DNA of 32,000 nucleotides from Pyrolobus fumarii 1A (GCF_000223395.1 NC_015931.1:420001-452000), one strand, 5' to 3'. Numbered from the stretch's first letter, positions 2,473 to 18,894 are shown. The notes: generated by a model from the letters alone, not told the origin. Translations and numbers: made by a program.

Positions 2473-2619
2473 CCTAGGACACTAGGTTATCGCGTTTCCA
2501 ACGGTGTAGGCCTCTTATCAAGGATACATGCAATTCCTCTAGGAAGAGGGTTACACGAGGTTATGATTATGGCGGGGCCGCCGGGATTTGGACCCCGGAC
2601 CTCCGTCTCATCTACCGCA

Positions 2620-3125
2620 CCCTTGATGATTGCAGGTCTTCCCGGCCGTACCCGGTGCAGAGGTCCTCGGTGAGCGACTGGAGGTGCTTGATGCACCACT
2701 CGCCACCATCCAGGCCGATAATGCTGGCGATGTAATCCACGTTATGGCTACTCGTCTCCCCAGAGGAGTCCCCGGAGGAATCTTCTCCGCGAGACCCCGT
2801 ATATCCTAGCCTCTGGGCTCCGCCTCCCGGCGGGCATCGAGGCCTGCTCGGCTACAGCGCTGGCTTCAATACCCGCGCCCGGGACGATGGGTGTATGCTC
2901 GAGGCGCTCTCCTAGGGTCGTCGATGTACACGGTCACCATATCCCCGTTTGAGCCGTCGGAGGCTCGCGTGGTAGTCTTGTCTTCTTGTACGCCTCCGGC
3001 CCGTGAAGGAGCACCGGGAGGTGCGTGCCACGCTCGGCTAGGCTAGCCAGAGCCCTAAGCTCCTCCGCACGGCTGACGAGATGCGGCTGTGCCGCCAGCC
3101 CCCCTACCAACTCGGGCGCGAAACC
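2620..3125 (-). pseudogene. Decayed Arch_ATPase-like gene (multiple frameshifts, degenerate Walker A)
   Basis: My minus-strand translation of 3125-2934 gives ...PHLVSRAEELRALASLAERGTHLPVLLHGPEAYKKTRL... followed by a stop. Compare FVDRERGL...FPVVIYGPEGCGKTAFL in the intact ATPase at 12946. Further fragments, such as DYIASIIGLDGGEW, continue in other frames down to about 2620. Confidence 0.4.
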
Positions 3126-3158
3126 CTAGCATGCTGGTATTCGTCCGGGGATGGCTTT

Positions 3159-3581
3159 TCACGGGTCTATCCCTCGTTTGTGTGCCTCCTCGAGCAGCTT
3201 GGCTGCAAGCACTACGGGCTTGCTGTACTCCCTCTCCTCGACCAGCCTCCTCACGAGCCGCATATCGACAGTCGCGTACTCGTGTACGACGATGTTGCGG
3301 AAGCCTGCTATGCTCTTTAGGAGCCTCGCCTCGGCGTCGTTGATGACGCCTTCTCTCCTAAGCGCCTGGATGGCCTCACGCGTTGTGCTCGGGGTGTAGC
3401 CCAGCTCGGCTGCGAAACGCTTAGCCATGTCTATCAGCGCCTGGGCTTGCACCTGGAGGAGGTGGAGGGCGGCCAGCTCCTCGACCCACGTCCTCAGCCC
3501 CATCTCTCGGAGCCTGTCGAGCCTCTCCGCGGCCTCGACAACCGTGTTGTAGAGTCTCGCAAGGATGCCCGTGGCCCCCAC
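3159..3581 (-). CDS. hepT: DUF86/HepT HEPN-family toxin
   Basis: It carries the GFRNIVVHEY (R-x4-H HEPN) motif and lies downstream of and overlapping an MNT gene. The start is uncertain. An internal Met at about 3503 would reduce the 88-nt overlap. Confidence 0.75.
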   Translation of the reverse strand: MGATGILARLYNTVVEAAERLDRLREMGLRTWVEELAALHLLQVQAQALIDMAKRFAAELGYTPSTTREAIQALRREGVINDAEARLLKSIAGFRNIVVHEYATVDMRLVRRLVEEREYSKPVVLAAKLLEEAHKRGIDP

Positions 3582-4030
3582 CTGCGTAGAGCGGCCCGCA
3601 CCGCAGCCTCAATAACGTTGAGCTTGCGGCTGGATATCGCCTCGTCCTCGCAGACGCCGAGCCTCCTGAGCAGCTCGTCTATGAGCGCCCCCCGATCCAC
3701 CGTATAGAGGATCACATTGTGCCTCGCGGCCTCCTCTAGGAGGGGGCACGGAGCCTCATCGAGGCCGATCACGTCCACCTGGTCCGGGTCTATGCCCAGG
3801 GCGTCCGAGACCGTGAGCATAACCCTAAGCTTCTCCTCCATGTCGAGGTGTCTACCCCCGCAGGGCAGTACGAGCAGGTCTACGTCGCGGCCTACGCCCC
3901 TCCGCGCGAGAGACCCTACGAGCAGCACGTGGCAGACCCCAAGCTTACGCCACTCTAGCCTCCTCAACCTCTCCACGACATCGGCAGCATTGAGCAATAG
4001 CCTGCGCCGTGCCCGGAGAGCAAGAGCCAA
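3494..4030 (-). CDS. mntA: Minimal nucleotidyltransferase antitoxin (MntA-like)
   Basis: VLLVGSLARRGVGRDVDLLVL matches the GS-x(n)-DxD NTase signature. The C-terminal ~30 aa look non-native and overlap hepT, so a frameshift or a long overlap is possible. Confidence 0.7.
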   Translation of the reverse strand: MALALRARRRLLLNAADVVERLRRLEWRKLGVCHVLLVGSLARRGVGRDVDLLVLPCGGRHLDMEEKLRVMLTVSDALGIDPDQVDVIGLDEAPCPLLEEAARHNVILYTVDRGALIDELLRRLGVCEDEAISSRKLNVIEAAVRAALRRWGPRASLRDSTTRLSRPRRGSTGSERWG

Positions 4031-4145
4031 GCCTTAAACGCCTGGCGCGCCGATCAGCCAACGTCGCAGCTACAGCCCTTCGCCGTATGATCGTCGCTGG
4101 GCAGGAGCCGCGGCGAGATCCGCCCTCTACCGGCTGTGCCCAGGC

Positions 4146-4526
4146 TCACCCGCCCGGCACGCCGCTGCGCGGACACGGCAAGACGAGCAACAACAGTATC
4201 AGTGTGGCCTTTAGGGCCTCTACGGCCACGCCTATGAGGCTCTCCGTCGCCGCCCAGAGGGGTAGTGACGCGAGGATAGCCAGGTCGAGCGAGGCTGCCA
4301 CCACGCCCAGGAGCCGCCCGAGGCTGACGCCACGGTAGAGCAGGAAGCCCGCCACGATGTAAGACCAGCAGACGGCGAGGTACAGCGCCACAGTCTCACC
4401 GTACAACGCGTAGTGATCCGAGATGTGCAGCGGCCACCCTCCAAGAATTATGCCGAACAACCCGGTAACAATCATGAAGACCGCGGCTAGCCTCACAGGG
4501 TTATAGCTCGCCCCGTCTCTCTGCAA
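4146..4526 (-). CDS. Small polytopic membrane protein (about 4 TM helices), unknown function
   Basis: The sequence has hydrophobic segments AAVFMIVTGLFGIILGG, VALYLAVCWSYIVAGFLLY, LLGVVAASLDLAILASL and ATLILLLLVL. No family was recognised. Confidence 0.5.
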   Translation of the reverse strand: MQRDGASYNPVRLAAVFMIVTGLFGIILGGWPLHISDHYALYGETVALYLAVCWSYIVAGFLLYRGVSLGRLLGVVAASLDLAILASLPLWAATESLIGVAVEALKATLILLLLVLPCPRSGVPGG

Positions 4527-4886
4527 CGTAAACCCTACTACTACAGACGCGACGCACGAATATTAAAGGAGGAGTTTGGCCCACTTGCCCCTACCAGCGT
4601 GCATGGCGAGGCTTTGAGACCACCTCGAGGCCAGGAGCACCGGAGGGCATCACTATGCACGAGTAGCGGTAGGTGCGGCGTCCTCCGTCGAGCCCCTGGC
4701 GCTTGCCCCGGACCCGGGCCCGGCGGCGCAACGTCACTCGTCATCACGTGTGTCTCGGCGCGAGGCGGGCCGGATAACGACACCAGTGTTGCGAGCTATC
4801 GTCCCTCCGAGGCCGAGCCCCGATCCGCGCCGGGGAAGCGTTAAACTAGTTTCGCTTCTACCCTGAGTGCCCCCAGTGGTGCGGTT

Positions 4887-5327
4887 TTGCCGAGCATCGA
4901 GGAGTATAGGCTGCTGTTGCAGCGTAGCAGGATGTTCCTCGAGGAGGCTCGCGACGCGCTCGCCAAGCAGCGTTACGATCTGGCGGTTTTCCTCGCAGAG
5001 CAGGGACTACAGCTCTACCTCAGGGCTCAGCTTCTCCGCGTGCTGGGCGACTACCCTAGAACCCATAGCATCCGGCAGCTCCTCGCTATGCTCTCGAGGG
5101 CTCTCGGCGGCGAGGCCGAGAGGGAGATAGCCGAGTTCATGAGGCGCGAGAGGCCCCGCCTCTCCGAGCTCGAGGATGTGTATATAGCTTCTCGCTACAC
5201 TCTACGCGTCTACACGAGGGAGGACGCCGAGGACATACTATCCACCGTGGAGAGGGTGACAGCCCTTGTCGAGAAGCTACTCAGAGGTACTCCTCGAGAC
5301 GATGCTCGAGAGGAGACGCATGCTTAG
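4887..5327 (+). CDS. HEPN-domain protein (PF05168-type)
   Basis: YPRTHSIRQLL and IASRY motifs match the pattern PKTHSI...ARYP seen in the paralogue at 16392-16850. It is paired with the downstream NTase. Confidence 0.7.
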   Translation: MPSIEEYRLLLQRSRMFLEEARDALAKQRYDLAVFLAEQGLQLYLRAQLLRVLGDYPRTHSIRQLLAMLSRALGGEAEREIAEFMRRERPRLSELEDVYIASRYTLRVYTREDAEDILSTVERVTALVEKLLRGTPRDDAREETHA

Positions 5328-5697: not shown

Positions 5698-8600
5698 TCT
5701 TCAATCCGTTCTTGGTTGTTTCTTCAAAGCTCCATATTTTGTCCTCCAAGGCGAGATACTACCGCTTTCTTTCAATTCATTCCTGGTTGTCTCTCCACCC
5801 TTAGACCTACGCCAAATGCCTTACTTTCATACTAACCAACTTTCAATTCATTCTTTGTTGTTTCGTCCTCGCGGCGCTAGTGCTACTTGTGCCTGCTCTG
5901 GCGGCTAGCATCTTTCAATTCATTCTTTGTTGTTTCCGGCAAATGCAGCACGTTGTAGTGCCATACCTATCTGCATGGCCTTTCAATTCATTCTTTGTTG
6001 TTTCCTACAGCCAGTGGCGACGATGGACGATGTGAAGACGCTCCACCTTTCAATTCATTCTTTGTTGTTTCTCGTATACCTGGCGGAGTGGCTCCGTGCT
6101 CATTATCGTGTCTAGCTTTCAATTCATTCTTTGTTGTTTCCCGCTACGCCGCACTCGTTGACCTTCCGCCCCATCCCAAGAGTATCTTTCAATTCATTCT
6201 TTGTTGTTTCCCGTGCGGGCTGGGGAGGGGCGGGCGGAGACACCGAGGCACAGCCTTTCAATTCATTCTTTGTTGTTTCGAGCCGCAGCAGAGACTCCTC
6301 CTGGCCCGGCACCGGGTCTTTCAATTCATTCTTTGTTGTTTCCACTACGACGACTACCAGCCAACAAGCTTCGACAACGACCTTTCAATTCATTCTTTGT
6401 TGTTTCCTCACAGCACGTCACCCCACTACCATGACAACCACCCTGCCACTTTCAATTCATTCTTTGTTGTTTCACATAGTGCCGCTTGAGCGCATTGACG
6501 ACCCGGAGCGGTTCCTTTCAATTCATTCTTTGTTGTTTCCCGCCCTGCTGTACGCTATCAAACAAAATCCGAACATACTGCGCCTTTCAATTCATTCTTT
6601 GTTGTTTCGTGCGCATGCTCGTGCTAGTCACCCGCGGATTGCACTACTTCCTTTCAATTCATTCTTTGTTGTTTCTTTGGTATCGGTATTCTGCTTGGTG
6701 CAATTGCTAACGCCACCAACTTTCAATTCATTCTTTGTTGTTTCCTTATGCCCTCTTTTGCCCACTTGCGGAATAGCTCTATCCACTGACTTTCAATTCA
6801 TTCTTTGTTGTTTCTACGAGGCGCCCGACTGGCACCCGGAGGGAGTCACGGTAACCGTGCTTTCAATTCATTCTTTGTTGTTTCTGGGCAGCCGCCAAAG
6901 CCCGTCTATGCCAGCGGCGGCTACCTTTCAATTCATTCTTTGTTGTTTCTAGGCCTGCTAACACCCTGGCTCATACTAGGAGCAATGGCGACGGGCTACG
7001 TCTTTCAATTCATTCTTTGTTGTTTCCTGGCCCTGCAGGTCGATCACTGGGGTTATCGTGGTGTTCTTTCAATTCATTCTTTGTTGTTTCAAAAGATTGC
7101 TAAATGGCTCGAAGAGGACTTGTCTGACGAACTTTCAATTCATTCTTTGTTGTTTCGGGTTCATAGCATGGGCGGTTGGTATAGACGCCGAGATGGCCAG
7201 GCTTTCAATTCATTCTTTGTTGTTTCTAAGGGCGAGGAGCGCGAGGTTGACATGTGGGTCGTGCTTTCAATTCATTCTTTGTTGTTTCCTCGTCGCTACC
7301 CTCGATGAGGTACGGTGGTAGCATGAGCGCTGTCTTTCAATTCATTCTTTGTTGTTTCGCTCAGGTCCTCCGGTGCGTTCTCCAGCGCGTAGTTAACCTT
7401 TCAATTCATTCTTTGTTGTTTCGGGCGGACAGTTCTTCCACTACACGGTGTTGTCGTGGCTAACGCTTTCAATTCATTCTTTGTTGTTTCTATGCCTCGC
7501 GCCTTGGCCCAAGAACCTATATCGCGTACTCGTGCTTTCAATTCATTCTTTGTTGTTTCCCAGGATGGCCGCCGCGGCGGCAAAGATGTCCGCCTCTACC
7601 AACTTTCAATTCATTCTTTGTTGTTTCTCGGCTCGGCTTCCGTTCCTAGAGCGGCGGTATCGCCTAGAACTTTCAATTCATTCTTTGTTGTTTCTATGTA
7701 ACGCCGCGTTTCAGTGGCATGACGATGAGATGGGTGCTTTCAATTCATTCTTTGTTGTTTCACGAGAGCGGCGGCACGATATGCGAGTGTGAAGCCGACG
7801 ATGTCCTTTCAATTCATTCTTTGTTGTTTCACAGGGCCTCTCTACTCGACGCCAGGAAGCTGGTAAGGGTACTTTCAATTCATTCTTTGTTGTTTCCACG
7901 TTCTCCAGCCACTTTAGGAGCCACTCTTTCTTCTCCCCTTTCAATTCATTCTTTGTTGTTTCCCATGCGGCGGCTGCCGCTTCTCCACCAGCCGTCTTCA
8001 TACTTTCAATTCATTCTTTGTTGTTTCCTCGACCTTATCGCATGGCATGCAGTGAGCATGAGGAATGTCCTTTCAATTCATTCTTTGTTGTTTCCGCATA
8101 CCCTCTATACGCGGTGCGGGGATCCGGAAATGGTGGCTTTCAATTCATTCTTTGTTGTTTCCAGGCTTGGGTCGTGTCCACGCCCGAAGTCCGGTATCTT
8201 GCCAGGCTTTCAATTCATTCTTTGTTGTTTCACGTAGCTTAGGGTCGAACATGCCAACCGCTGGCTCTGTGTGCTTTCAATTCATTCTTTGTTGTTTCGA
8301 GGCTCTGGCAGATGGCCAAGGGCAGTGCTGGCAAGAAGCGGCTTTCAATTCATTCTTTGTTGTTTCCGTCCTTCGCGGGTTTACGCGTGGGGGTGCGTGG
8401 GATGGAGGCCGCCTTTCAATTCATTCTTTGTTGTTTCACACGCGTTTTTTCAACTTGCGCGACCTCGCACATCACGATCTGCCTTTCAATTCATTCTTTG
8501 TTGTTTCTTACGCGGTAGGCCCACGCGGAGGTGGTCGCGGGTGAAGCTTTCAATTCATTCTTTGTTGTTTCTATCGCGACAAACGTGCGCAGTGATGGAC

Positions 8601-10417
8601 GAATATACCTCCTTTCAATTCATTCTTTGTTGTTTCACAGTGGAGGTGAGCAAGCCATCCGACTGGTCTAGGAACAGGGCTACTTTCAATTCATTCTTTG
8701 TTGTTTCATGGGCTGTGTCGCGAGAACTGCTACCACGCGTGTATCATGGCATTGCTTTCAATTCATTCTTTGTTGTTTCCCGTGTGTGGCAAAAGTCGAA
8801 GGCAGAGGCGGCTACAAACCAACTTTCAATTCATTCTTTGTTGTTTCCTTGATTCTCAGCGCCACGAACGACGCTCTAGTATCGTCAATGACCTTTCAAT
8901 TCATTCTTTGTTGTTTCAGGCTGAACAGCTAGCACGGGGGAGGACACGAGCCATGAACGACTTTCAATTCATTCTTTGTTGTTTCGTGACGGGGTACCTA
9001 GCCACGGTTGTCACCTCCTAGATGTTCATACTTTCAATTCATTCTTTGTTGTTTCTCGCGGTAATAGTCCCCAGCGTCCGGGTCCACTGGTATCTCGACT
9101 TTCAATTCATTCTTTGTTGTTTCACTGAGGCCAGGGAGGAGCGGGAGCAGAAGCCCAGCGAGGCTTGCTTTCAATTCATTCTTTGTTGTTTCCGCGCGAC
9201 GTTATGGTCGTTCCCGCCGCGTCCGCCTCATCTTTCAATTCATTCTTTGTTGTTTCCTCGCTTCGAGAGGATAGTGATAAGGTGCGAGCCTATGACGCTT
9301 TCAATTCATTCTTTGTTGTTTCGTTAAACTAGAAATGAAAGCGCAAGGTTGTGAAAACGGGTGCTTTCAATTCATTCTTTGTTGTTTCCCCAGAAATATC
9401 TCGAACCGGAAATATCGAGCCCCGATAGGGTCACATTCCTTTCAATTCATTCTTTGTTGTTTCCTCACCCACCCGACCAGCGACCCATCACTAGCATTGT
9501 AGAACTCCCTTTCAATTCATTCTTTGTTGTTTCGTATTTGCACCACCAGCCGCAAGGCAGTATATGCCGCTTTTTCACTTTCAATTCATTCTTTGTTGTT
9601 TCCGCCTGGAGGTCTTCTGCGAGTGCAAGGGGTGTAGAGCCACTTTCAATTCATTCTTTGTTGTTTCATGATCTCAAATCGCGTCTCTTTACCGCCGCGA
9701 TCCTCTCCAGGCTTTCAATTCATTCTTTGTTGTTTCCATCAACGCTGTATCGTTCTTCCGCGATACGCCAAACCACTTGCTTTCAATTCATTCTTTGTTG
9801 TTTCGGATGTTACAACCCCAATAGTACCCAGTGTTGCATGTTCTCTTTCAATTCATTCTTTGTTGTTTCCGCGAGTGGTGGTTCGTGAAGGCGCGTCGCA
9901 TAACCGTGCTTTCAATTCATTCTTTGTTGTTTCCGCAGTTCCTGGCCACTGCCCGCCAGGTGCTAGAGAAGCTCGACTTTCAATTCATTCTTTGTTGTTT
10001 CTTTGGCTTCTCTTCATCCTCTAGACAATCACCGAGAATCAAGTCCTTTCAATTCATTCTTTGTTGTTTCATACATGTATGGGGTGGAGGTAGGTGATGC
10101 GACCAGTCATAGGCCCTTTCAATTCATTCTTTGTTGTTTCGCGCAAATGCTCGATACGTCCGCGGGAATATCCGCCTGTAGGCCTCCAGCTTTCAATTCA
10201 TTCTTTGTTGTTTCAAGTCCGGAATCTCGCTGGAGATGCCGAGGCGCGGTTTCGACTTTCAATTCATTCTTTGTTGTTTCACGGCCGCTGGCATATCCTC
10301 GCTCAGTAGCGTAGCTCCGATCAACTTTCAATTCATTCTTTGTTGTTTCCTGAAGGTTATGCTGGTGGTGTATGATGGTGGAATGCCAGTTACTTTCAAT
10401 TCATTCTTTGTTGTTTC
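5698..10417 (-). CRISPR. CRISPR array 1: 70 repeat units, 69 spacers
   Basis: There are 68 identical 25-nt repeats, CTTTCAATTCATTCTTTGTTGTTTC on the + strand, from 5840-5864 to 10393-10417. Two degenerate units lie at 5698-5722 and 5769-5793. Spacers are 37-52 nt and all look distinct by eye. Three observations indicate minus-strand transcription: the decayed units are at the left end, a conserved leader is at the right end, and the reverse complement ends in ATTGAAAG. Confidence 0.97.
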
Positions 10418-10690
10418 TGCATTCTTGCCATGTAGCTATAGGCCCTTCCCAGTATTTATTCTTGTCTGTCTTGTCTCTGTTTATGTGCATTTCGAGAGAT
10501 AGTGTGCGCCATGGCTGCCTGTGGGGCACGGTCCAGCGGTAGTACCGGGGTTATAAGCAGGGTAAAGTCTAAATACTGGATTGCAACAGTTTGGAGTATG
10601 TCCCGACCGCTGATAGTACCATGGGTAATGGTCCGCGGGTAGTACCGGGAGTTTAAAGGGTTACGCTAGAGGGTAGAAAAGGGTTGTGTC
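10418..10690 (-). promoter_or_regulatory. Leader of CRISPR array 1 with TATA-like box
   Basis: It is homologous, in inverted orientation, to 17302-17564. It holds a TGCATTCTTGCC flank, AATAAATA (reverse complement of 10453-10460) 36-43 nt from the first repeat, and two 17-bp dyad motifs at 10530-10546 and 10630-10646. Confidence 0.8.
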
Positions 10691-11016
10691 TAGGATGTGG
10701 GAGTTGCTGATTGTGTTTCCGTGTTTTGTTGTGTGTAGCTGTTGTGGTTGCGAGTTGTAGGTGATGTCTCAGTGTGCGCCTATGTCCGGGTTGTGTAGTG
10801 AGTTTGTTGTTTTACTGTCTCGTGTTGTGCTTGTCGCTTGTGTTGTAGCTTCTCTGTGCTGCTCTCTGGGCGCCCATTGTGCCTCTAGGAGAGGGTTCTT
10901 GCCATGAGACCGTGGGGTATGGTCCCGCTTTTGCCTGGGTTTGGCCTGGTTAGATCGTGGGTGTTGAGCCCGTGGGCCGTGGTGGCCGTGCCTGCAGGGT
11001 ACTACCGTGTCTTGCT

Positions 11017-11991
11017 CTACCTCGTCTCTATCCTGGTTGTCCCGAATCCTGCTGCTCGGCTGGCTCCCATGCCCATTACCGCTGCGTGGCTGAGGAGGTG
11101 CTCGGTTGTCTCGGTGTCTTCTGGCGTCGCGTCCTCGACGTAGAGCTTGGTGTAGCCTACTAGTGCGGGTAGGAGCCTGCCGCTGTGTATGTAGTAGCGG
11201 AGTCTTGTTGTTCTCCAGGTGGCTGGTGAGGGTGAGAGTGTCCTCTCGGCGGCCTCCACCATCTCGAGGGCTCTCCTGTGATCGCCCTCTGCTAGCTCCA
11301 GGGCGTTGACGTAGAGGAGGTATGAGGGTGCTGGTAGTAGCCTCTTCCAGCGGGAGCCGGGGCGCCAGGGGTTAACCGGCAGCGTGGGCGCCATGAGGGT
11401 TATCTTGACGCTGGTGGCGTCGCGTAGCCTGATTATGGGCTTGCCGCCCGGATCGTAGGTGGCCACCCTCCTGGCGTCCACGAGCTCGACGCGCAGCGTG
11501 TGCATCGAGAAGTCTATGTTGACGCCCTTATCCAGGCACGAGACCACCTCGTCTATCACATCCTCGAGGCCCGGGCCGAGCCCCACGTGGAAGGCGAGGG
11601 TGGAGCCGCTCTCGACCACTGGGTACTCGGTGCTCCTGCCGTCCCAGGAGCCGGGGTAGACCGCCTCGACCCTGCCGCCCTCGACGCGGAGGAGGGGTGA
11701 GAGCGAGAGGGGCTTGGGAAGAGTCAGCCCATCGTGGTTCAGTATGAGGGCGGCTGTGCGGGAACACGTGGCCACCAAGCCCCTCACGAGCTTACCCGTG
11801 TAGTCCGTGACGAGGAGGGGGCCGTAGCCGAGCCGGAGCCACAGCCTCACCCGCAGCTCCCAACGCTGGAATATCGTCAACCAGCCGCCGGCCCCTGGCT
11901 CCAACCACACGAGAGGCGCGTATAGACATAGAGGCGGCAAAGAACCCAGGCAAACAGTCACCAGTGCACCAGTCTCTACCGCGCTCCACAC
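11017..11991 (-). CDS. cas6: Cas6 endoribonuclease paralogue A
   Basis: The C-terminus has a glycine-rich loop, HLLSHAAVMGMGASRAAGFG (Cas6 GhGxxxxxGhG-type). It is homologous along its length to the ORF at 14107-15078, sharing LPVNPWRPGSRWKRLLP among other segments. It lies adjacent to leader 1. The first ~40 aa are doubtful, so the true start is probably internal. Confidence 0.75.
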   Translation of the reverse strand: MWSAVETGALVTVCLGSLPPLCLYAPLVWLEPGAGGWLTIFQRWELRVRLWLRLGYGPLLVTDYTGKLVRGLVATCSRTAALILNHDGLTLPKPLSLSPLLRVEGGRVEAVYPGSWDGRSTEYPVVESGSTLAFHVGLGPGLEDVIDEVVSCLDKGVNIDFSMHTLRVELVDARRVATYDPGGKPIIRLRDATSVKITLMAPTLPVNPWRPGSRWKRLLPAPSYLLYVNALELAEGDHRRALEMVEAAERTLSPSPATWRTTRLRYYIHSGRLLPALVGYTKLYVEDATPEDTETTEHLLSHAAVMGMGASRAAGFGTTRIETR

Positions 11992-12275
11992 GGAGCCCCA
12001 AGGATACCCGGCATCATGCCCGTGTGTGACCGCGGCGGCATCGAGAGCAGCTAATGGAATCCAAGACTAGTACGAGAGCGTCGATCACGTTGGCCCTAGT
12101 TCACTAGGGGAAGGCGAGCAGAGGGTACACCGTGGTGCCTCCAACGGGCCAGGTTAGGCCCTACAAGTCGTCCCGGCGATAGACGGTGTAAAGGACTGCT
12201 GTTTGTTTGGGCTGAGAGATTGTGTGGTTAGTGAGGGGCTGGTAAGCCTGGGACGGGGTGCTGGGCTACTGGCCG

Positions 12276-12827
12276 TCAATGCTTGCGGCTGTGCTCTATC
12301 CTGGCCCGGATCTCCTCGACCAGCTTCTCTGCCTCGGCTAGTACGGCCTCTACGTCTCTGCGTGTACACCAGCCCTCGTAGAAGCAGGTGTGGAGGCTGT
12401 TGGCCTCGCGGAACACCCTCCCTATCCACTCTCCCAGCTCGCGAGCGACAACATCCTTGTACTCCCATAGCTCGCCGTGGCTAGCCAGCCTCCTCCCATC
12501 CCTCCAGGCCGCATACGCCTTCACGGCTAGCGCCACAGCGCCCCAAATCTTCTCAGCAGCCTGCCTATGGTCGCCCCTACCCAGCTCTCCCCTCGCCTGC
12601 CCAAGGAGCAGGCTAGCGGCCTCGATGTAGTCCAGAGCCCTCTCCCTCGGATCCGCCTCCCGCTCCACAAGCTCGATGATATACTCCTCGACCGTCACAC
12701 CTAGACGCTCAGCCTCCCTCTTAACCCTCTCACCAACCCTAGGGGGGAGCACGATAACCAGACCAGCCAAGACCCTACCATCCCCAGTCTTAGGGGTAGG
12801 CAGTACGCCCCACAAAACGTGTAACAC
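12276..12827 (-). CDS. PaREP1-family protein with N-terminal RHH-like segment
   Basis: AAEKIWGAVALAVKAYAAWRDGRRLASHGELWEY...ANSLHTCFYEGW matches the remembered PaREP1 pattern (EKxWGA..VK..A...SH..LW...A..LH..FYEG). The N-terminal VKREAERLGVTVEEYIIELV looks CopG/RHH-like. Confidence 0.7.
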   Translation of the reverse strand: MLHVLWGVLPTPKTGDGRVLAGLVIVLPPRVGERVKREAERLGVTVEEYIIELVEREADPRERALDYIEAASLLLGQARGELGRGDHRQAAEKIWGAVALAVKAYAAWRDGRRLASHGELWEYKDVVARELGEWIGRVFREANSLHTCFYEGWCTRRDVEAVLAEAEKLVEEIRARIEHSRKH

Positions 12828-12945
12828 ATGAACCTGAGGCGCTGCAACACCCCGGCTTGCCGAGCCGGTTCCCTGGGTCCGGGGGCGGTCCAGGGCTTTC
12901 GAATAGTGTCACTGTAGACTGTACCGCGACTCCCTTGCCCGGCTG

Positions 12946-14052
12946 GTGGTGCTGGCCAGCGGCGCCATGCGCTTTAATTTTATGCAGCGACGCTACTGTC
13001 TTCGTTGCTGGGAGTGTCTTGGCGTGGCTTCGTGGCGTAGGGTTAGGCTGGTCTTCGCCCCTGGTCTCACAGTAGAGTTTGTTGACCGCGAGCGTGGTTT
13101 GAGGCAGGTTGAGGGTCTCGCCGGGAGGGGTACGAGGTTCCCCGTGGTGATCTATGGGCCGGAGGGTTGCGGGAAGACCGCGTTTCTCCGCCAGGTTTTC
13201 GAGGTTTTGAAGAGCCTCGGGTATAGCGTCGTCTACGTGAATCCGCTCGGGAGGGAGGCTGGGGAGAGGCTGCTGACGACGGAGGATGTGAGGAGTCTCG
13301 TGGGCGCGTTGGCCGAGTTTGCTCTTGGCGGTGGGGCTGCGAGGCTCGTAGACGCGGCTTTGGGAGTCGCGTCTAGGCTGTTCGGGCGTAGCAGGAGGAT
13401 AGCGTTCATAGCGGATGACGTATTCCAGGCTATTGGTGTCGAGGAGGCCGAGTTGTACGTCAAGAGGCTGTTGAACCTCATCGAGTATCCTCCGGGCGAG
13501 TATGAGAGGATTGTTGTCCTGGTGGCGTCTAGCGAGGGCGTCACGAGGGGGAGGATCTCTAGGCACAACTGGGCGAAGCTCATGATGATGTGGAACATGC
13601 CGAGGAGCGCCCTGGAGGAGCTCTACGAGCAGATACCGGGCGCTAAGCCGGGCTTCGACGAGGTGTGGGCCTGGACCGGCGGAAACCCGAGGTACCTGAG
13701 CCGACTCTACGAGGCCGGGTGGCGGGTGGACCGCGTGATAGAGGAGATCGTCGCTGAGAGGAGGGTGTTGCGGGCGCTCGCCCGGAGGTGGAGAAGAGAG
13801 CTGGAGGAGACTGTCAACGACCCGGACTACCTCATGGAGGAGTATGAGAGGGTGGAGGGGCTTGCACGGAAACTGATAGAACTCAACATGGTGGTGGAGG
13901 TCGTCGAGTACCGCAGCGAGGATCTCTGGATAGACACGCCTCCGCCCGAGAGGGACCCGGAGCTGGGCATAGGAAGGTTCTACGCATGGGCGACCCCGCT
14001 TCACAGGGAGGCTGTCAGGAGGATACTCTCCGAGTATTCTCTGAGCGGGTGA
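12946..14052 (+). CDS. Archaeal AAA+ ATPase (Arch_ATPase/PF01637-like)
   Basis: FVDRERGLRQVEGL is followed by a Walker A motif, VVIYGPEGCGKTAFL. Walker B reads IAFIADDVFQ, and TGGNPRYL is also present. The start is uncertain: a TTTAATTTTA box at 12971-12980 suggests a downstream start such as the GTG at 13024. Confidence 0.75.
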   Translation: MVLASGAMRFNFMQRRYCLRCWECLGVASWRRVRLVFAPGLTVEFVDRERGLRQVEGLAGRGTRFPVVIYGPEGCGKTAFLRQVFEVLKSLGYSVVYVNPLGREAGERLLTTEDVRSLVGALAEFALGGGAARLVDAALGVASRLFGRSRRIAFIADDVFQAIGVEEAELYVKRLLNLIEYPPGEYERIVVLVASSEGVTRGRISRHNWAKLMMMWNMPRSALEELYEQIPGAKPGFDEVWAWTGGNPRYLSRLYEAGWRVDRVIEEIVAERRVLRALARRWRRELEETVNDPDYLMEEYERVEGLARKLIELNMVVEVVEYRSEDLWIDTPPPERDPELGIGRFYAWATPLHREAVRRILSEYSLSG

Positions 14053-14106
14053 CGCTAGCGTAGAGTAGCCGCGGCTAGTGGTGCGCGTCGGGCGCCCGTG
14101 GGGCTC

Positions 14107-15078
14107 CTAGCCCTCGAGCCTATCGGTGGACGGCATGGCCTCTATGCTTACCGCGCCGAAGCCAGCCGCCCTCCCGGAACCCACCCCCATGACCACAGCG
14201 TGGCTGAGGAGGTGCTCCACGGTCTCTACCTCCCCCTTGCCCACCCCCTCTGTCTCGACGTGGAGCTTCACATAGCCTATCATCGCTGGGAGCCTGCTCC
14301 CGTCGTACAGGTACCAGTATACCCTCGCGGTGTCGAGGGCCGCGTGGCTGGGGGATAGTATCCTCTCGGCGGCGATCAGCGCCCTCTCGACGAGAGCCGT
14401 GTCGGGGTCGAACATGTCGTGGGCGTTCACGGCCAGCAGGTATGAGGGTGTGGGCAGCAGCCTCTTCCAGCGGGAGCCGGGGCGCCAGGGGTTAACCGGC
14501 AGCGTGGGCGACCTAAACACGATCTTGACCGCCTCTACGCCGTCGAGCCTGACTATAGGGTCGCTGTGCGTGTCGTACTCCGCTATCATCCGGGCCTCTA
14601 CGGGCTCCACGGTGATAGCCGCTCCGCAGAACCTCACCGAGACGCCCCGCGAGAGGCACTCGAGCAAACGTGGCATCTCGTTAATCAAGTCGCCACCAGC
14701 ACCAACCTCGAAGAAGACCACCTCGCCGTCTTCGAGCACCGGGGCCCGTATCTTGTCGCGTTGCGGGCCGCCCGGGTACACCGCCTCGACCCTACCGGGG
14801 CCGGTCACGCGGAACAAGGGCGTCACGGAGAGCCTCTTGGCCACGCTCTTCTCCGAGGAGGAGAGTATGGACGCGAACCTCTCCGAGCACACCGCTAGGA
14901 GGCTCTTCACGAGCTTCCCGGTGTAGTTGCACACGCGTAGAGAGCCGAAGCCATACACCCTAACCGTGAAGGACCATCGCTCGAACCTAGCCACTCTATA
15001 GCCCCCGTGCACAGAGGAGCAGGGATTCAAGAAGGGTTTTCGAGCAGGATTTGCGGGAGACGCGCCCTGGTGCAACAC
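14107..15078 (-). CDS. cas6: Cas6 endoribonuclease paralogue B
   Basis: It has the glycine loop HLLSHAVVMGVGSGRAAGFG and the N-terminal pattern WSFTVRVYGFGSLRVCNYTGKLVKSLL. It is a paralogue of 11017-11991 and lies 29 nt downstream of an MNT gene on the same strand. Confidence 0.75.
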   Translation of the reverse strand: MLHQGASPANPARKPFLNPCSSVHGGYRVARFERWSFTVRVYGFGSLRVCNYTGKLVKSLLAVCSERFASILSSSEKSVAKRLSVTPLFRVTGPGRVEAVYPGGPQRDKIRAPVLEDGEVVFFEVGAGGDLINEMPRLLECLSRGVSVRFCGAAITVEPVEARMIAEYDTHSDPIVRLDGVEAVKIVFRSPTLPVNPWRPGSRWKRLLPTPSYLLAVNAHDMFDPDTALVERALIAAERILSPSHAALDTARVYWYLYDGSRLPAMIGYVKLHVETEGVGKGEVETVEHLLSHAVVMGVGSGRAAGFGAVSIEAMPSTDRLEG

Positions 15079-15107
15079 CGGGGCGGGTGTGCAGCCCAGC
15101 GACCTCT

Positions 15108-15452
15108 CTACCCGTCAACCCCAGGGTCTACCCGCACATGCCTATACCTGGCTAGCATCTCTCTACACTCCTCATCACTATGCACGTGCAGCTCTACGGG
15201 GTAGTCTATCGGGAGGCCGTGCTTATCGAAAGCCTCCTTTAGCACCGCGTGCTTCACCAGCCTCGGGTCGGCGTCCTCCTCGAGGCACAGGAGCACATCC
15301 ACATCGCTGAGGACTGTTAGCCTGCCCTCCGCGGCGCCACCGATGACATACACTCTGGCCCTCAACCCGAGGCTCTCGACAGCCCTGGCTATGGCCTCGG
15401 CAGCCTCCCTCCACCTCCTCAGGTACTCTACGTGGTGCCTAGCCCAGAGCAC
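15108..15452 (-). CDS. Minimal nucleotidyltransferase (MNT)
   Basis: It carries VYVIGGAAEGRLTVLSDVDVLLCL and overlaps the upstream HEPN gene by 14 nt. Confidence 0.75.
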   Translation of the reverse strand: MLWARHHVEYLRRWREAAEAIARAVESLGLRARVYVIGGAAEGRLTVLSDVDVLLCLEEDADPRLVKHAVLKEAFDKHGLPIDYPVELHVHSDEECREMLARYRHVRVDPGVDG

Positions 15453-15939
15453 GCCTCTCGACCTCCTCTAGCAGCTCGAATAGTCTCTTCGCGGCCAGTA
15501 TCACATCCGCGACCTCCCGAGCCCCCAGCGTAAAGACCCCATAACGGGCCGATGTATAGGCGTCCTCAGCGTCTATAAGCTGGTCGCGGTACTCCCTCGT
15601 GTACCTCCTGACCTCACCTGCGAGGCTCCGGCACCCCAGCTCCTCCAGCACACGCGCCAGTATCCCGAGCAGCTCGCGGAGACCGTGTATCCTCGGCATT
15701 TCGCCGGAGAGGCGGAGCAGAGACGCTTTTACGCGCAGCTGCATAGCCTGCTCGGCGCAGAAAGCGGCGATGTCATACCGCCCTCTCTCCAGCAGCTCGC
15801 GAGCCAGGGATAGGAAGAAGCGTGCACGATCCTTCAACAGCTCTACACGCTCACCACTACCCATCACGCACCCCGAAGAACCGAGAAACACGAGAACATT
15901 ATACACCATGACGCCGCCATACAGCTGGTACACCGACAA
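15439..15939 (-). CDS. HEPN-domain protein
   Basis: It carries MPRIHGLRELL and YTSARYG motifs. The likely start is the internal Met at about 15864 (MGSGERVELL...). Confidence 0.7.
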   Translation of the reverse strand: MSVYQLYGGVMVYNVLVFLGSSGCVMGSGERVELLKDRARFFLSLARELLERGRYDIAAFCAEQAMQLRVKASLLRLSGEMPRIHGLRELLGILARVLEELGCRSLAGEVRRYTREYRDQLIDAEDAYTSARYGVFTLGAREVADVILAAKRLFELLEEVERRALG

Positions 15940-16102
15940 GACACTATGGCCGCGCGCATAACCGCGGGGGAGGACGCCGCTGCTCGAGACGAGCGTCCCG
16001 CTAGACCCGTCAAACCGAGACGAGGTTGGATAGCCGAGAGGAAGAGCACGGTGACCCCCAAGACGCGGCGAGGCGCTACACGCGGCCTCGTAGAACTATG
16101 GG

Positions 16103-16546
16103 CTACACTATGCGCATCCAGTACCTAGACGCGTCTCTCAACACCACGCTCTTCTCGAGCCTGTCGCGAAGCTCCTCGGGCGTGAGGGGTATGAGGGTCG
16201 CGTCCCTCTCCCACCTCCAGAGCCGGTATAGCATAGAGAGCCTCTCCTCCATAGTGTAGCGCCCCCAGTCCCTAGATACTATCACGAGGTCGACATCGCT
16301 CTCGGCGGTGTAGTCCCCCCGCGCTATACTGCCGAAGAGGTAGACCGCCTCTACCCTCACGCCGCGCCCCCTGAGCTCTACAGTCAGCTCCTCAACCCAC
16401 CTGCGTATCTCCTCGAGAAGCCTCCTCCACTGCTCTCTCCGCCGCCTCAACAACTCTCCTAGCGGCAGCCACTGCTCTCTCCGCGGTTCTCCCGCTGATA
16501 ACTTCATCCGGGAGGCCCTCCACGACATCCGGGTACCTCGCGACAT
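16103..16546 (-). CDS. Minimal nucleotidyltransferase (MNT)
   Basis: It carries VYLFGSIARGDYTAESDVDLVIV. The listed start overlaps the HEPN gene by 155 nt, and an in-frame TTG near 16450 after GGAG is a more plausible start. Confidence 0.7.
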   Translation of the reverse strand: MSRGTRMSWRASRMKLSAGEPRREQWLPLGELLRRRREQWRRLLEEIRRWVEELTVELRGRGVRVEAVYLFGSIARGDYTAESDVDLVIVSRDWGRYTMEERLSMLYRLWRWERDATLIPLTPEELRDRLEKSVVLRDASRYWMRIV

Positions 16547-16850
16547 AGTAGTATTGTGTCAGCTCGTATGCGTCCTCCAGTTCCTCCCTGCCTAGCCCCA
16601 GGTTGGAGCCTAGCTCCTCGAAAAGCCTCCGGATGCTATGCGTCTTCGGGAAATAGCCTTTAAGAGCGAGCAAGACAGCTTTAAGCGCCTTCTCGGCAGC
16701 CTGCTGCGCCCAGAACACGGCGGCCGCACGATCACCCTCCCTAAGGCTACGCTCGGCACGCTCAAGATCCCTCCTTGCGAGCCTCAACCACCATAAAACC
16801 TGCTCCCTAACCACCCTCCACACCCTTACAGCCGCGCCACTACACAGCAT
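16392..16850 (-). CDS. HEPN-domain protein
   Basis: It carries YFPKTHSIRRLFEEL and YYVARYPD, the classical PF05168-type HEPN motifs. Confidence 0.75.
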   Translation of the reverse strand: MLCSGAAVRVWRVVREQVLWWLRLARRDLERAERSLREGDRAAAVFWAQQAAEKALKAVLLALKGYFPKTHSIRRLFEELGSNLGLGREELEDAYELTQYYYVARYPDVVEGLPDEVISGRTAERAVAAARRVVEAAERAVEEASRGDTQVG

Positions 16851-16974
16851 CTATACACTACATGACAGCCAGGCAGCTACCGCGCAATGGGCCCTTTGTA
16901 GCACCGACGCCAACCCTACTCATACACCACCCCCACAAAAACACCACCGGAAAACCAAGAACAACCAATGAACG

Positions 16975-17241
16975 TTAGGACCTCGACTCACACCATACCA
17001 ACGGATCACCGCCCAAGCTCCCTTTGACGCCAGGCATCCCACCAACAATACTCACCTCGAAGAACAGAACCTCACCATATCCAGCCATATCCGCAGCACC
17101 CTCCCGCGTAACAAGCCGCCCCTTACACAGCCTCAACCCTGCCAGGCCAACCACACGGAACAACAGGAGGGTAACAGACAGCCTCTTGGCCACACCCCTC
17201 TGCGACAGGGGAAGGGACACCAACAAACCTCTCCAAAACAT
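16975..17241 (-). pseudogene. cas6: Truncated, decayed cas6 fragment abutting leader 2
   Basis: GVAKRLSVTLLLFRVVG...GEVLFFEVSIVGG aligns with SVAKRLSVTPLFRVTG...GEVVFFEVGAGG of Cas6 B (about aa 85-140). The N-terminal ~55 aa and the C-terminal half, including the glycine loop, are absent. Confidence 0.6.
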
Positions 17242-17289
17242 ATAACCAATAAATTTCCCACAGACTCATCACAAGCTTAAAAACAAATA

Positions 17290-17564
17290 CACTAGCAATC
17301 CTTATCTACCCTCTACAACAATATTTTTAACCCCTGGTACTACCGGTGGACCGTCGCTCACGGTCCCATGGGTGGATGTGAGGTACTCCCGACCGCTGTA
17401 ATCCGGTATTTAACCCTTGCCCGGCTTATAAACTCGGTACTACCCGCGGACCATACCCCACGGCCATCTGTGCCCGGCACGACTACACTCAAATCACAGA
17501 AACAAAGACAACAGAGAAAAGAATAAATAGAAGAGAGACCCTATAACCACACGGCAAGAATGCA
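17290..17564 (+). promoter_or_regulatory. Leader of CRISPR array 2 with TATA-like box
   Basis: It is the inverted homologue of 10418-10690. AATAAATA lies at 17522-17529, 36-43 nt upstream of the first repeat. Dyad motifs lie at 17336-17352 and 17436-17452, and GGCAAGAATGCA directly abuts the first repeat. Confidence 0.8.
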
Positions 17565-18822
17565 GAAACAACCAAGAATGAATTGAAAGCTTCAGCGCGT
17601 AGTAGTGGCGCTCGAGACTCCTTGGCGAGTAGGAAACAACCAAGAATGAATTGAAAGTTCATCACGGTCGGTATGAGTGGGAGCGGCGGGTTTGGGAAAC
17701 AACCAAGAATGAATTGAAAGTCCAGGTGCTCGATGGCCCATAGTGGCGCCTCTACAAGCGCGAATGGAAACAACCAAGAATGAATTGAAAGAAGGATGCG
17801 TTCGAGAACTGATATCGCGTTGTCAATTTCCCTCCGGGGAAACAACCAAGAATGAATTGAAAGGAGAGGAAGGCTGCCCCGGACCTCGTCCGCTCTATCG
17901 TCGATGGAAACAACCAAGAATGAATTGAAAGGCTATCATCGCCTCCAGTTTGGCAATGATTTGGTCAGCCTGTGAAACAACCAAGAATGAATTGAAAGAA
18001 GCTTCTTGTACGTCTCAACGTCGGCCTCAACGCGTATTACTTTCGAAACAACCAAGAATGAATTGAAAGGCGACGTACGCGATGTGTGGCGACTCGTTGA
18101 ACTGTGTGTTCTGCCGAAACAACCAAGAATGAATTGAAAGTACAAACTCGTAGTTCTCTCCGCCACGGTTTATAACGATGAGAAACAACCAAGAATGAAT
18201 TGAAAGTGCCTCGAACCTCGCGGCGGCCCTGTTATGGTTCGTGGCGGTGTGAAACAACCAAGAATGAATTGAAAGAACTATGCTCTGTAGTAGCCTGGGA
18301 AGCTCCGCGCTCATCCCGCGAAACAACCAAGAATGAATTGAAAGTAGTACACGCAATACGGCATTGCACACCCACCACGCGTACACTCTAGAAACAACCA
18401 AGAATGAATTGAAAGTAGTGTGGCACGACAGTGGCTATGACTTAGTGCCGGGCTATAGCCAGAAACAACCAAGAATGAATTGAAAGGTGACACTATACAA
18501 CATCACGGACGTCGTGAAGAGGAGCGTGAAACAACCAAGAATGAATTGAAAGTTAACCCGGCCGCGCGCCGCGACGATCTCGAGATCGCGCCGGCGGAAA
18601 CAACCAAGAATGAATTGAAAGGTGATAAAGTACGGCGCGCAATACGGCACCGGGTTCTGGATTGAAACAACCAAGAATGAATTGAAAGTGATCTCCTGTG
18701 GGTTCGGTTTCTCCACCCTGATCTCGACATCAGAAACAACCAAGAATGAATTGAAAGGTAGCTGAGACCATAGCGTAGCCGGTAGAGTTGTGCCACGGGA
18801 AACAACCAAGAATGAATTGAAG
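17565..18822 (+). CRISPR. CRISPR array 2: 19 repeat units, 18 spacers
   Basis: The repeat is GAAACAACCAAGAATGAATTGAAAG, first at 17565-17589. The terminal unit at 18799-18822 lacks one A (...ATTGAAG). Spacers are 38-47 nt. The leader is on the left, and the ATTGAAAG 3' end is typical of Cas6-processed archaeal repeats. Confidence 0.97.
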
Positions 18823-18894
18823 ATGTTTAGGGTGGCTGGCTTGGTTGGTCTGGTTGCGTCCGCGTGTTTTGCCGGGTGGGTTTCTGCGTTGCGG

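What the first reader, a model, noticed from the sequence alone, without database searches (positions are those of the whole stretch)
11318..11390. 52-nt tract of perfect nucleotide identity inside otherwise diverged cas6 paralogues
**Seen in sequence**
- 11339-11390 and 14459-14510 are identical: AGCCTCTTCCAGCGGGAGCCGGGGCGCCAGGGGTTAACCGGCAGCGTGGGCG.
- The 13-mer AGGTATGAGGGTG just upstream is also identical (11318-11330 and 14438-14450).
- Flanking codons differ freely, and the proteins are only moderately similar overall.
- The tract encodes PTLPVNPWRPGSRWKRLL. Every wobble position is conserved.

**Inference**
- One possibility is a recent short gene-conversion patch between paralogues 3.1 kb apart.
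- The other is a nucleotide-level constraint, such as an embedded RNA or DNA element or a regulatory target.
Basis: seen in the sequence. Interest (0 to 1): 0.55.

Follow-up and report, generated by a model that had tools for sequence, protein, structure and literature searches.

The report
Short gene-conversion patch between cas6 paralogues
Two old, diverged copies of a CRISPR RNA-processing gene (cas6) in the archaeon Pyrolobus fumarii share 52 identical bases, most likely because one copy recently overwrote the other there; this is ordinary gene conversion, not a hidden DNA or RNA signal.

Summary
Window 11339-11390 and 14459-14510 are 52/52 identical, inside two minus-strand genes (Pyrolobus fumarii Pyrfu_0458 and Pyrfu_0461) that are otherwise 48% identical in protein and 59% in DNA. 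Both are real but very divergent Cas6 proteins: the AlphaFold model matches Sulfolobus Cas6 structures.

The tract encodes the family's most conserved block, SP[TA]LPVNPW[RK]PGSRWKRLLP, an inter-domain loop. Protein selection therefore explains the amino-acid identity. It does not explain the wobble identity:
- In six orthologues and in five other within-genome paralogue pairs, three of them tandem, the same motif uses freely varying codons (about 50% the same).
- The P. fumarii pair is 14/14 the same. pS is 0.00 in the tract and 0.54 outside it.
- Outside the tract each copy groups with its own orthologue (bootstrap 300/300 and 280/300; the two copies together 0/300). Inside it they are identical.
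- No other pair of similar divergence has an identical run longer than 25 nt.

I found no Rfam hit, no unusual RNA fold, no spacer match in the window, no shared overlapping ORF, and no copy in viral or metagenome collections.

Verdict: a recent short gene-conversion patch, as expected from the short-patch recombination described in hyperthermophilic Crenarchaeota. Low interest.

The parts
11339..11390 (-). Copy 1 of the 52-nt identical tract, in cas6 paralogue A (Pyrfu_0458). It encodes (A)PTLPVNPWRPGSRWKR(L).
   Evidence: Exact identity. Codon alignment. pS = 0.
14459..14510 (-). Copy 2 of the 52-nt identical tract, in cas6 paralogue B (Pyrfu_0461). It encodes (S)PTLPVNPWRPGSRWKR(L).
11318..11330 (-). 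13-nt identical block (CCC TCA TAC CT, P-S-Y-L), separated from the tract by 8 nt that carry 4 mismatches. It may be a second, discontinuous patch of the same event, or chance.
   Evidence: The TCA Ser codon is shared only by the two P. fumarii copies. Not significant alone.
14438..14450 (-). Partner of the 13-nt block, in paralogue B.
11017..11880 (-). cas6-like paralogue A (Pyrfu_0458, 287 aa; the open frame extends to 11991).
   Evidence: Pfam Cas6 at 17.8 bits, below the cut-off. Orthologue of P0006.
14107..14994 (-). cas6-like paralogue B (Pyrfu_0461, 295 aa; the open frame extends to 15078).
   Evidence: Pfam Cas6 at 26.8 bits. AF2 model and Foldseek hits to S. solfataricus Cas6. Orthologue of P0002.
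5769..10417 (-). CRISPR array 1: 69 repeats of 25 nt. On the minus strand the repeat reads GAAACAACAAAGAATGAATTGAAAG. The degenerate terminal repeat is at 5769.
17565..18823 (+). CRISPR array 2: 19 repeats of GAAACAACCAAGAATGAATTGAAAG, one base different from array 1. The degenerate terminal repeat is at 18799.
10418..10686 (-). Leader-like region of array 1, homologous to the leader of array 2.
   Evidence: Inverted repeat I1, 72%. Alignment.
17296..17564 (+). Leader-like region of array 2.
17032..17205 (-). Degenerate remnant of a third cas6-like gene (N-terminal part only; it lacks the tract region).
   Evidence: tblastn gives 40% identity over 63 aa, E = 0.003. Direct repeats D11 and D15.

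Best explanation
The tract is the footprint of a recent, short, non-reciprocal homologous recombination event (gene conversion) between two anciently duplicated cas6 paralogues. They lie 3,120 bp apart, in the same orientation, between two CRISPR arrays of Pyrolobus fumarii.

Shown: the duplication is older than the split between P. fumarii and the organisms that carry P0002 and P0006. The tract encodes the most conserved block of the protein family, a basic and aromatic loop between the two RRM-like domains.

Inferred: because this block is so conserved, it was already the most similar stretch of DNA between the two copies (about 75-85% identical, judging from cross-paralogue comparisons in relatives). 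It was therefore the likeliest place for strand pairing. Heteroduplex formation followed by short-patch excision and resynthesis then copied one paralogue's sequence onto the other. That erased roughly 7-12 differences, mostly synonymous, over at most 52 nt, or up to 73 nt if the neighbouring 13-mer is a second patch.

The donor was more probably the B lineage (weak evidence). In that case the loop of the recipient A may have changed at 2-3 residues: K to R, R to G, K to R, relative to its orthologue.

The nucleotide identity needs no function of its own. It is simply too young to have accumulated substitutions.
For: 1. Exact 52-nt identity within genes that are 59% identical in nucleotides. 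The next longest run is 20 nt, and 0 of 5000 permutations reached 52.
2. Synonymous divergence is pS 0.00 over 12.7 synonymous sites in the tract, against 0.54 (dS about 0.96) in the rest of the gene.
3. Codon usage is weakly biased. The chance that 16 codons are identical under independent draws is about 10^-7.7, and both copies share minority codons (GTT, CGC twice, TCC).
4. Family-wide constraint is excluded. All 27 other pairs among the eight genes use the same codon at only 3/13 to 9/15 of identical residues in the tract (pS 0.30-0.84), including a pair that is 84% identical overall.
5. Five other within-genome paralogue pairs, three of them tandem, are 36-40/48 identical in the tract.
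6. Other equally conserved motifs, such as the G-rich loop RAAGFG, differ freely at wobble between A and B.
7. The phylogenies disagree. Without the tract, A groups with P0006 in 300/300 bootstraps, B with P0002 in 280/300, and A with B in 0/300. In the tract A equals B and sits next to P0002.
8. Mechanistic plausibility. Short-patch, discontinuous gene-conversion tracts are the documented mode of homologous recombination in the hyperthermophilic crenarchaeon Sulfolobus acidocaldarius (PMC3367456). Hyperthermophilic archaea lack MutS and MutL, whose anti-recombination function normally aborts exchange between diverged sequences (PMC4471258).
Against: - The strictest test, which looks only at synonymous codons of residues identical in A and B, gives p = 0.009 rather than something overwhelming.
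- No closer relative or second P. fumarii strain is available, so the event cannot be dated, donor and recipient cannot be fixed, and the pre-conversion state cannot be seen.
- The flanks are only about 70% identical, which is low for classical homologous recombination. The argument that this suffices rests on Sulfolobus data, not on Pyrolobus.
- The rest of the P. fumarii genome, including its other CRISPR arrays, could not be searched. The genome-contig scan did not return P. fumarii itself. A P. fumarii-specific partner sequence is therefore not excluded.
Confidence: 0.85

Rival explanations
1. Selected homogenisation. The patch arose by conversion but was fixed because it made the RNA-binding inter-domain loop of the two Cas6 paralogues identical in protein sequence. 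That would keep both enzymes matched to the nearly identical repeats of the two flanking arrays.
For: - Both P. fumarii copies have WRPGSRWKR, whereas the A-orthologue P0006 has WKPRSKWKR and the B-orthologue P0002 has WRPRSRWKR. The recipient therefore probably changed 1-3 residues.
- The loop is the family's most conserved block and is modelled as a low-confidence (flexible) basic and aromatic loop between the domains.
- The two arrays' repeats differ by one base.
Against: - The substitutions are conservative (K/R), and position G/R varies across the family, so a functional effect is not evident.
- Other genomes with two or more paralogues show no homogenisation.
- Neutral fixation explains the data equally well.
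- The RNA contacts of the loop were not tested.
Confidence: 0.1
2. Nucleotide-level functional element specific to P. fumarii. Both copies would be held identical because the DNA or mRNA stretch is itself a target or signal: a crRNA or small-RNA target for co-regulation of both cas6 genes, a protein-binding site, or a structured RNA.
For: - Perfect identity including all wobble sites.
- The tract contains a GGTTAACC palindrome, created by the unusual GTT codon, that the orthologues lack.
- The rest of the genome could not be searched.
Against: - The congeneric Pyrolobus sp. orthologue is only 36/48 identical in the tract.
- No Rfam match at E <= 1.
- Folding z-scores range from -1.06 to +0.56 on both strands.
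- The best match to any of the 86 spacers in the window is 10 nt.
- No shared alternative-frame ORF.
- The central 22-mer and the degenerate in-frame pattern are absent from the viral and JGI metagenome collections.
- Placing the same element in both genes would still need a conversion event.
Confidence: 0.04
3. Chance coincidence from protein constraint plus codon bias, with no recombination.
For: The tract is the most conserved protein motif of the family. GC3 is high, at 0.80-0.84 in the rest of the genes.
Against: - The same motif in the other 27 pairs among the eight genes and in five further within-genome paralogue pairs shows about 50% codon identity.
- The codon-usage expectation is 10^-7.7.
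- Permutation tests.
- The longest run in comparable pairs is at most 25 nt.
Confidence: 0.01

Closest known systems
Short-patch gene conversion during homologous recombination in Sulfolobus acidocaldarius (Mao & Grogan 2012, PMC3367456; review by Grogan 2015, PMC4471258)
   Same: - A hyperthermophilic crenarchaeon.
- Non-reciprocal transfer of short, sometimes discontinuous tracts (tens of bp) between moderately diverged sequences.
- Consistent with the absence of MutS/MutL anti-recombination.
- A 52-nt patch with a possible separate 13-nt patch fits this pattern.
   Different: - The Sulfolobus data come from transformation or conjugation with exogenous DNA into one locus, observed experimentally.
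- Here the event is inferred from sequence, is between chromosomal paralogues 3.1 kb apart, and is in a different order (Desulfurococcales, from my own knowledge of taxonomy).
- The partners are much more diverged.
Concerted evolution of archaeal paralogues by gene conversion, for example duplicated mtrA in methanogens (PMC4632066; title and abstract seen)
   Same: Ancient duplicates in one genome are partly homogenised by gene conversion, which produces incongruent phylogenies.
   Different: That case is described as long-lasting conversion shaping whole genes. Here there is a single tiny patch in genes that are otherwise saturated at synonymous sites. I did not read that paper beyond its abstract.
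Cas6 of Sulfolobus (Saccharolobus) solfataricus (PDB 4ILL/4ILM, 3ZFV)
   Same: - The best structural matches to the modelled Pyrfu_0461 (Foldseek E about 4e-11, TM about 0.6).
- A two-domain fold, modelled with two beta-alpha-beta halves.
- A C-terminal glycine-rich loop.
- The genes sit next to arrays whose repeats end in ATTGAAAG.
   Different: - Only about 10% sequence identity.
- No sequence hit to any PDB chain at E <= 1 and no NCBIfam hit.
- The conserved LPVNPWRPGSRWKRLLP loop characterises this small family (8 clusters in 5.8 billion proteins).
- Catalytic activity is untested.

Membership tests
Gene-conversion tract between paralogues | A run of identity significantly longer than the overall divergence predicts | tested here: met
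   The run is 52 nt against a next-longest of 20. 0 of 5000 permutations reached 52. Comparable pairs have runs of at most 25 nt.
Gene-conversion tract between paralogues | Synonymous divergence collapses inside the tract but not in the flanks | tested here: met
   pS is 0.00 in the tract (12.7 synonymous sites) against 0.54 outside. The sliding window shows the only zero at the tract.
Gene-conversion tract between paralogues | Phylogenetic incongruence: paralogues group together in the tract and with their own orthologues elsewhere | tested here: met
   NJ bootstrap without the tract gives A+P0006 300/300, B+P0002 280/300 and A+B 0/300. In the tract A equals B.
Gene-conversion tract between paralogues | Identity is not explained by a conserved nucleotide-level constraint (orthologues vary at silent sites) | tested here: met
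   Six orthologues and five other within-genome paralogue pairs vary at wobble sites.
Gene-conversion tract between paralogues | Identified donor and recipient, or a pre-conversion allele seen in a close relative | not testable with these tools
   No second P. fumarii strain or close sister is in any collection. The tract is slightly closer to the B-type orthologue (41/48 against 36/48).
Cas6 endoribonuclease | Two-domain Cas6 (RAMP) fold | tested here: met
   The AF2 model has pLDDT 83 and pTM 0.84. The top 30 Foldseek hits are all Cas6 proteins or Cas6-containing CRISPR complexes, best E 3.8e-11.
Cas6 endoribonuclease | C-terminal glycine-rich loop | tested here: met
   MG[VMI]G[SA][SG]RA[AT]GFG is conserved in all 8 members.
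Cas6 endoribonuclease | Passes the curated family profile (Pfam PF10040 or NCBIfam) | tested here: inconclusive
   B scores 26.8 bits against a cut-off of 25. A scores 17.8 bits, below it. No NCBIfam hit. No PDB sequence hit.
Cas6 endoribonuclease | Genomic association with a CRISPR array | tested here: met
   Both genes lie between two arrays in the window. This is not seen in the MAG contigs of relatives, possibly because assemblies break at arrays.
Cas6 endoribonuclease | Cleaves the CRISPR repeat RNA | not testable with these tools
   Needs biochemistry.
Embedded structured RNA or regulatory nucleotide element | Nucleotide conservation across orthologues | tested here: not met
   Tract identity to orthologues is 67-85%, with free wobble variation.
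Embedded structured RNA or regulatory nucleotide element | Stable or known structure | tested here: not met
   Fold z-scores are -1.06 to +0.56. No Rfam match in the tract.
CRISPR self-target (protospacer) | A spacer complementary to the tract | tested here: not met
   The best match among the 86 spacers in the window is 10 nt.

The most novel reading that the evidence does not exclude
The patch is not a neutral accident. It is either selected concerted evolution of the RNA-recognition loop, keeping two Cas6 paralogues tuned to the near-identical repeats of the two flanking arrays, or a P. fumarii-specific nucleotide target (a crRNA, small-RNA or protein site) that co-regulates both cas6 genes.
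Probability: 0.12. Interest if true: 0.45.

Novelty: new member of a known kind. Interest (0 to 1): 0.15.

Why it matters
The main value is as a cleared flag. A perfect 52-nt repeat inside coding sequence next to CRISPR arrays could be mistaken for a protospacer, a regulatory RNA or a mobile-element scar, and it is none of these.

It is also a clean natural example of very short-tract conversion between highly diverged chromosomal paralogues (59% identical) in a hyperthermophilic crenarchaeon. That fits the laboratory picture from Sulfolobus: short-patch conversion with no MutSL anti-recombination barrier.

One practical consequence follows by inference. The two tracts are direct, in-frame repeats 3,120 bp apart (a multiple of 3). 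A crossover within them would delete the intervening PaREP1 gene and the 404-aa ORF and create an in-frame chimeric cas6.

Tried and rejected
- **Embedded RNA.** Rfam at E <= 1 over 10300-17700 found only CRISPR repeats. Folding of the 52-nt and 109-nt regions on both strands gave z-scores from -1.06 to +0.56.
- **Self-targeting spacer.** All 86 spacers of both arrays were run with blastn-short against the window. The best hit in the tract was 10 nt.
- **Promoter or terminator in the tract.** None was found. The scan is sigma-70 based and so of little value for an archaeon.
- **Overlapping or antisense gene.** No alternative frame is open across the tract in both copies.
- **Copies elsewhere.** I searched a degenerate in-frame 47-nt pattern, which also matches the exact tract. 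It found 1 hit in genome contigs (the Pyrolobus sp. MAG orthologue) and 0 in the metagenome and viral collections. The central 22-mer found 0 in the metagenome and viral collections. The genome scan did not return P. fumarii itself, so the rest of its genome remains unchecked.
- **Codon bias as the explanation.** Rejected.
- **A second conversion patch at EHLLSHA** (20-nt run). Rejected as specific evidence, because P0002 and P0006 carry nearly the same codons there.
- **Sequence-level placement of the family.** The PDB sequence search and NCBIfam gave nothing. Only fold comparison identified Cas6.

Full report
**1. Observation**

Window 11339-11390 and 14459-14510 are identical over 52 nt. 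The 13-mers at 11318-11330 and 14438-14450 are identical too. With up to three mismatches allowed, the 52-mer occurs only at these two places, and never in 100 shuffles of the window. The repeat finder reports the wider block, 11301-11409 against 14421-14529, as 84% identical. The identical run is bounded by mismatches at 11338/14458 and 11391/14511.

**2. The genes**

Both copies lie in minus-strand ORFs, 11017-11991 and 14107-15078. A protein search identifies them as Pyrolobus fumarii 1A Pyrfu_0458 (287 aa, window 11017-11880) and Pyrfu_0461 (295 aa, window 14107-14994). They are 48% identical in protein and 59% in aligned nucleotides.

Sequence evidence for Cas6 is thin:
- Pfam PF10040 scores 26.8 bits for B (cut-off 25) and 17.8 bits for A.
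- NCBIfam gives nothing.
- A profile of the family hits no PDB chain at E <= 1.

The fold evidence is clear. An AlphaFold2 model of Pyrfu_0461 (pLDDT 83, pTM 0.84) matches Cas6 structures in Foldseek. The best hits are Sulfolobus solfataricus Cas6 4ILM/4ILL and 3ZFV, with E about 4e-11 and TM about 0.6. The label 'cas6 paralogues' is therefore right, for a very divergent and rare family: 8 clusters among 5.8 billion proteins.

**3. What the tract encodes**

The family alignment shows that SP[TA]LPVNPW[RK]PGSRWKRLLPxPSYLLAVNA is by far the most conserved block. In the model it is a low-confidence loop (residues 166-181) between the last strand of the N-terminal domain and the first helix of the C-terminal domain. 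The only other low-confidence internal segment is the glycine-rich loop. I infer that it is a flexible, basic and aromatic RNA-binding loop. Protein-level selection therefore accounts for the amino-acid identity of the tract. What remains to explain is the identity at silent sites.

**4. Silent sites in relatives**

I fetched the DNA of all six other family members and built a codon alignment. In the 16 codons of the tract, the P. fumarii pair uses the same codon at 14 of 14 degenerate identical residues. The other 27 pairs do so at 3/13 to 9/15, the same roughly 50% seen in the rest of the genes. This includes P0004/P0005, which are 84% identical overall but 9/15 in the tract.

Nei-Gojobori pS for A against B is 0.00 in the tract (12.7 synonymous sites) and 0.54 elsewhere (dS about 0.96). 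For all other pairs the tract pS is 0.30-0.84.

The genes immediately downstream of P0003, P0004 and P0005 turned out to be further family members (hhalign E = 8.6e-49). That gives three tandem paralogue pairs, and the MAG GCA_053988995.1 (which holds P0003, P0005 and their downstream genes) supplies two more pairs between genes on different contigs. All five pairs keep the motif, yet they are only 36-40/48 identical in nucleotides. Between A and B themselves, other strongly conserved motifs such as RAAGFG differ freely at wobble positions.

**5. Statistics**

- The longest identical run for A against B is 52 nt, and the next is 20.
- Permuting codon columns never gave 52 or more in 5000 trials (maximum 36).
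- The run of 25 consecutive matched sites among family-polymorphic sites, a GENECONV-like statistic, was never reached (maximum 19).
- The most conservative test, the run of identical codons among identical degenerate residues, gives p = 0.009.
- Codon usage in the window is weakly biased. The probability that all 16 codons coincide by independent choice is about 10^-7.7, and both copies share minority codons (GTT, CGC twice, TCC).
- Among the 26 other pairs with 49-64% identity, the longest identical run is 8-25 nt.

**6. Phylogeny**

With the tract removed, neighbour-joining trees put A with P0006 in 300/300 bootstraps. P0006 is from a Pyrolobus sp. MAG, the same gene as L008. B groups with P0002 in 280/300 bootstraps on protein and 196/300 on nucleotides. 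A and B never group together (0/300). In the tract, A and B are identical and sit next to P0002.

The duplication is thus older than these speciation events, and the tract has a different, much younger history. This is the classical signature of gene conversion. The tract is closer to the B-type orthologue (41/48) than to the A-type (36/48), which hints weakly that B was the donor. If so, the loop of A changed from something like WKPRSKWKR to WRPGSRWKR.

**7. Tests of the alternative: an embedded element**

- Rfam at E <= 1 finds only CRISPR repeats in 10300-17700.
- The tract and its 109-nt context fold no better than shuffles on either strand.
- None of the 86 spacers of the two arrays matches the tract beyond 10 nt.
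- No alternative reading frame is open across the tract in both copies.
- The exact tract, its central 22-mer and a degenerate in-frame version are absent from IMG/VR and the JGI metagenome collection.
- In GTDB representative genomes the degenerate pattern finds only the Pyrolobus sp. orthologue.

One caveat applies. That scan did not return P. fumarii itself, so I could not examine the rest of its genome or its other CRISPR arrays.

**8. Mechanism and context**

Transformation studies in Sulfolobus acidocaldarius show that homologous recombination in this hyperthermophilic crenarchaeon proceeds by short-patch, often discontinuous, non-reciprocal conversion of heteroduplex (PMC3367456). Hyperthermophilic archaea lack MutS and MutL, whose anti-recombination activity otherwise aborts exchange between diverged sequences (PMC4471258).

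A 52-nt patch is what that mechanism predicts. So is the possible second 13-nt patch, separated from the first by four retained mismatches. The most conserved protein motif is also the most similar DNA, and so the place where pairing between 59%-identical genes is most feasible. These steps are inferred, not shown.

**9. Verdict**

The best explanation, at about 0.85, is a recent short gene-conversion tract between ancient cas6 paralogues. This is a known kind of event, and the identical nucleotides have no demonstrated function of their own. The residual alternatives are selected homogenisation of the RNA-binding loop (about 0.10) and a P. fumarii-specific nucleotide target (about 0.04). Interest is low.

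Noticed in passing
window 5769-10417 and 17565-18823; leaders 10418-10686 and 17296-17564: There are two CRISPR arrays, with 69 and 19 repeats. They appear to be transcribed divergently from homologous leaders of about 270 nt (72% identical as an inverted repeat), which bracket the 6.9-kb cas6 region. The degenerate terminal repeats lie at the outer ends. The two arrays' 25-nt repeats differ by a single base (GAAACAACAAAG... against GAAACAACCAAG...).
   Followed up: partly
window 17032-17205 (-): This is a remnant of a third cas6-like gene (40% identity over 63 aa to residues 47-108 of Pyrfu_0461, E = 0.003). It abuts the leader of array 2, is truncated before the tract region, and is followed by a HEPN gene.
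   Followed up: partly
window 10522-10556 and 10622-10656 (and the equivalent positions in leader 2): Each leader contains an internally duplicated motif of about 35 nt (GGTCC...GGTAGTACCGGG..TT.TAA), 100 nt apart and conserved between the two leaders. It may be a protein-binding element of the leader.
   Followed up: no
window 15108-16850, 2038-5327, 24266-24706, 26992-28219: The neighbourhood is dense with toxin-antitoxin-like genes. Two nucleotidyltransferase/HEPN pairs lie between cas6 B and array 2. Elsewhere there are a HepT/Polbeta pair, another HEPN gene, three PIN-domain genes and a UPF0175 gene.
   Followed up: partly
window 12790-14004 (-) and 12276-12827 (-): The two genes between the cas6 paralogues are a 404-aa ORF with no Pfam or NCBIfam hit and a PaREP1-family protein. 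Neither is duplicated along with cas6.
   Followed up: no
L003 6864-7430, L004 10894-11721, L006 10892-11722: In three MAG contigs the cas6-like gene is followed directly by a second, 35%-identical member of the same family that the protein search had missed. In L004 and L006 this tandem pair sits among housekeeping genes (dCTP deaminase, MFS and ABC transporters) with no CRISPR array called within 10 kb.
   Followed up: partly
L001 780-1652 against L002 10001-10864: P0002 (B-type) and P0006 (A-type) share a 25-nt identical run just downstream of the tract (SYLLAVNA). They also have the lowest tract pS of any non-P. fumarii pair (0.30). If they come from the same or sister organisms, this could be an older conversion in that lineage. 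They come from different samples, so this is undetermined.
   Followed up: no
window 11366-11373 and 14486-14493: The tract contains the palindrome GGTTAACC (an HpaI-type GTTAAC site), created by the minority Val codon GTT. None of the orthologues has it (GTC or GTG). I did not test whether it is relevant, for example as a nuclease site that initiates recombination.
   Followed up: no
window 22528-24252 (-) and 31003-31488 (-): There are weak, sub-threshold CARF-type hits: TIGR02710 at 17.5 bits, Cas_NE0113 at 22.9 bits and Card1 CARF at 19.3 bits. These may be CRISPR ancillary genes. No core cas effector genes were recognised in the window.
   Followed up: no
Genome-contig scan: The degenerate tract pattern, which matches the window's own sequence, did not return Pyrolobus fumarii 1A from the GTDB representative collection. 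The source genome is either masked or absent there. All 'no other copy' statements therefore exclude the rest of this genome.
   Followed up: no
L002 8857-9171 (= L008 5185-5499): Twelve tandem 21-nt units (a heptad-like period) lie inside a 262-aa gene with coiled-coil and PDDEXK_10 hits, next to the Pyrolobus sp. cas6 orthologue.
   Followed up: no
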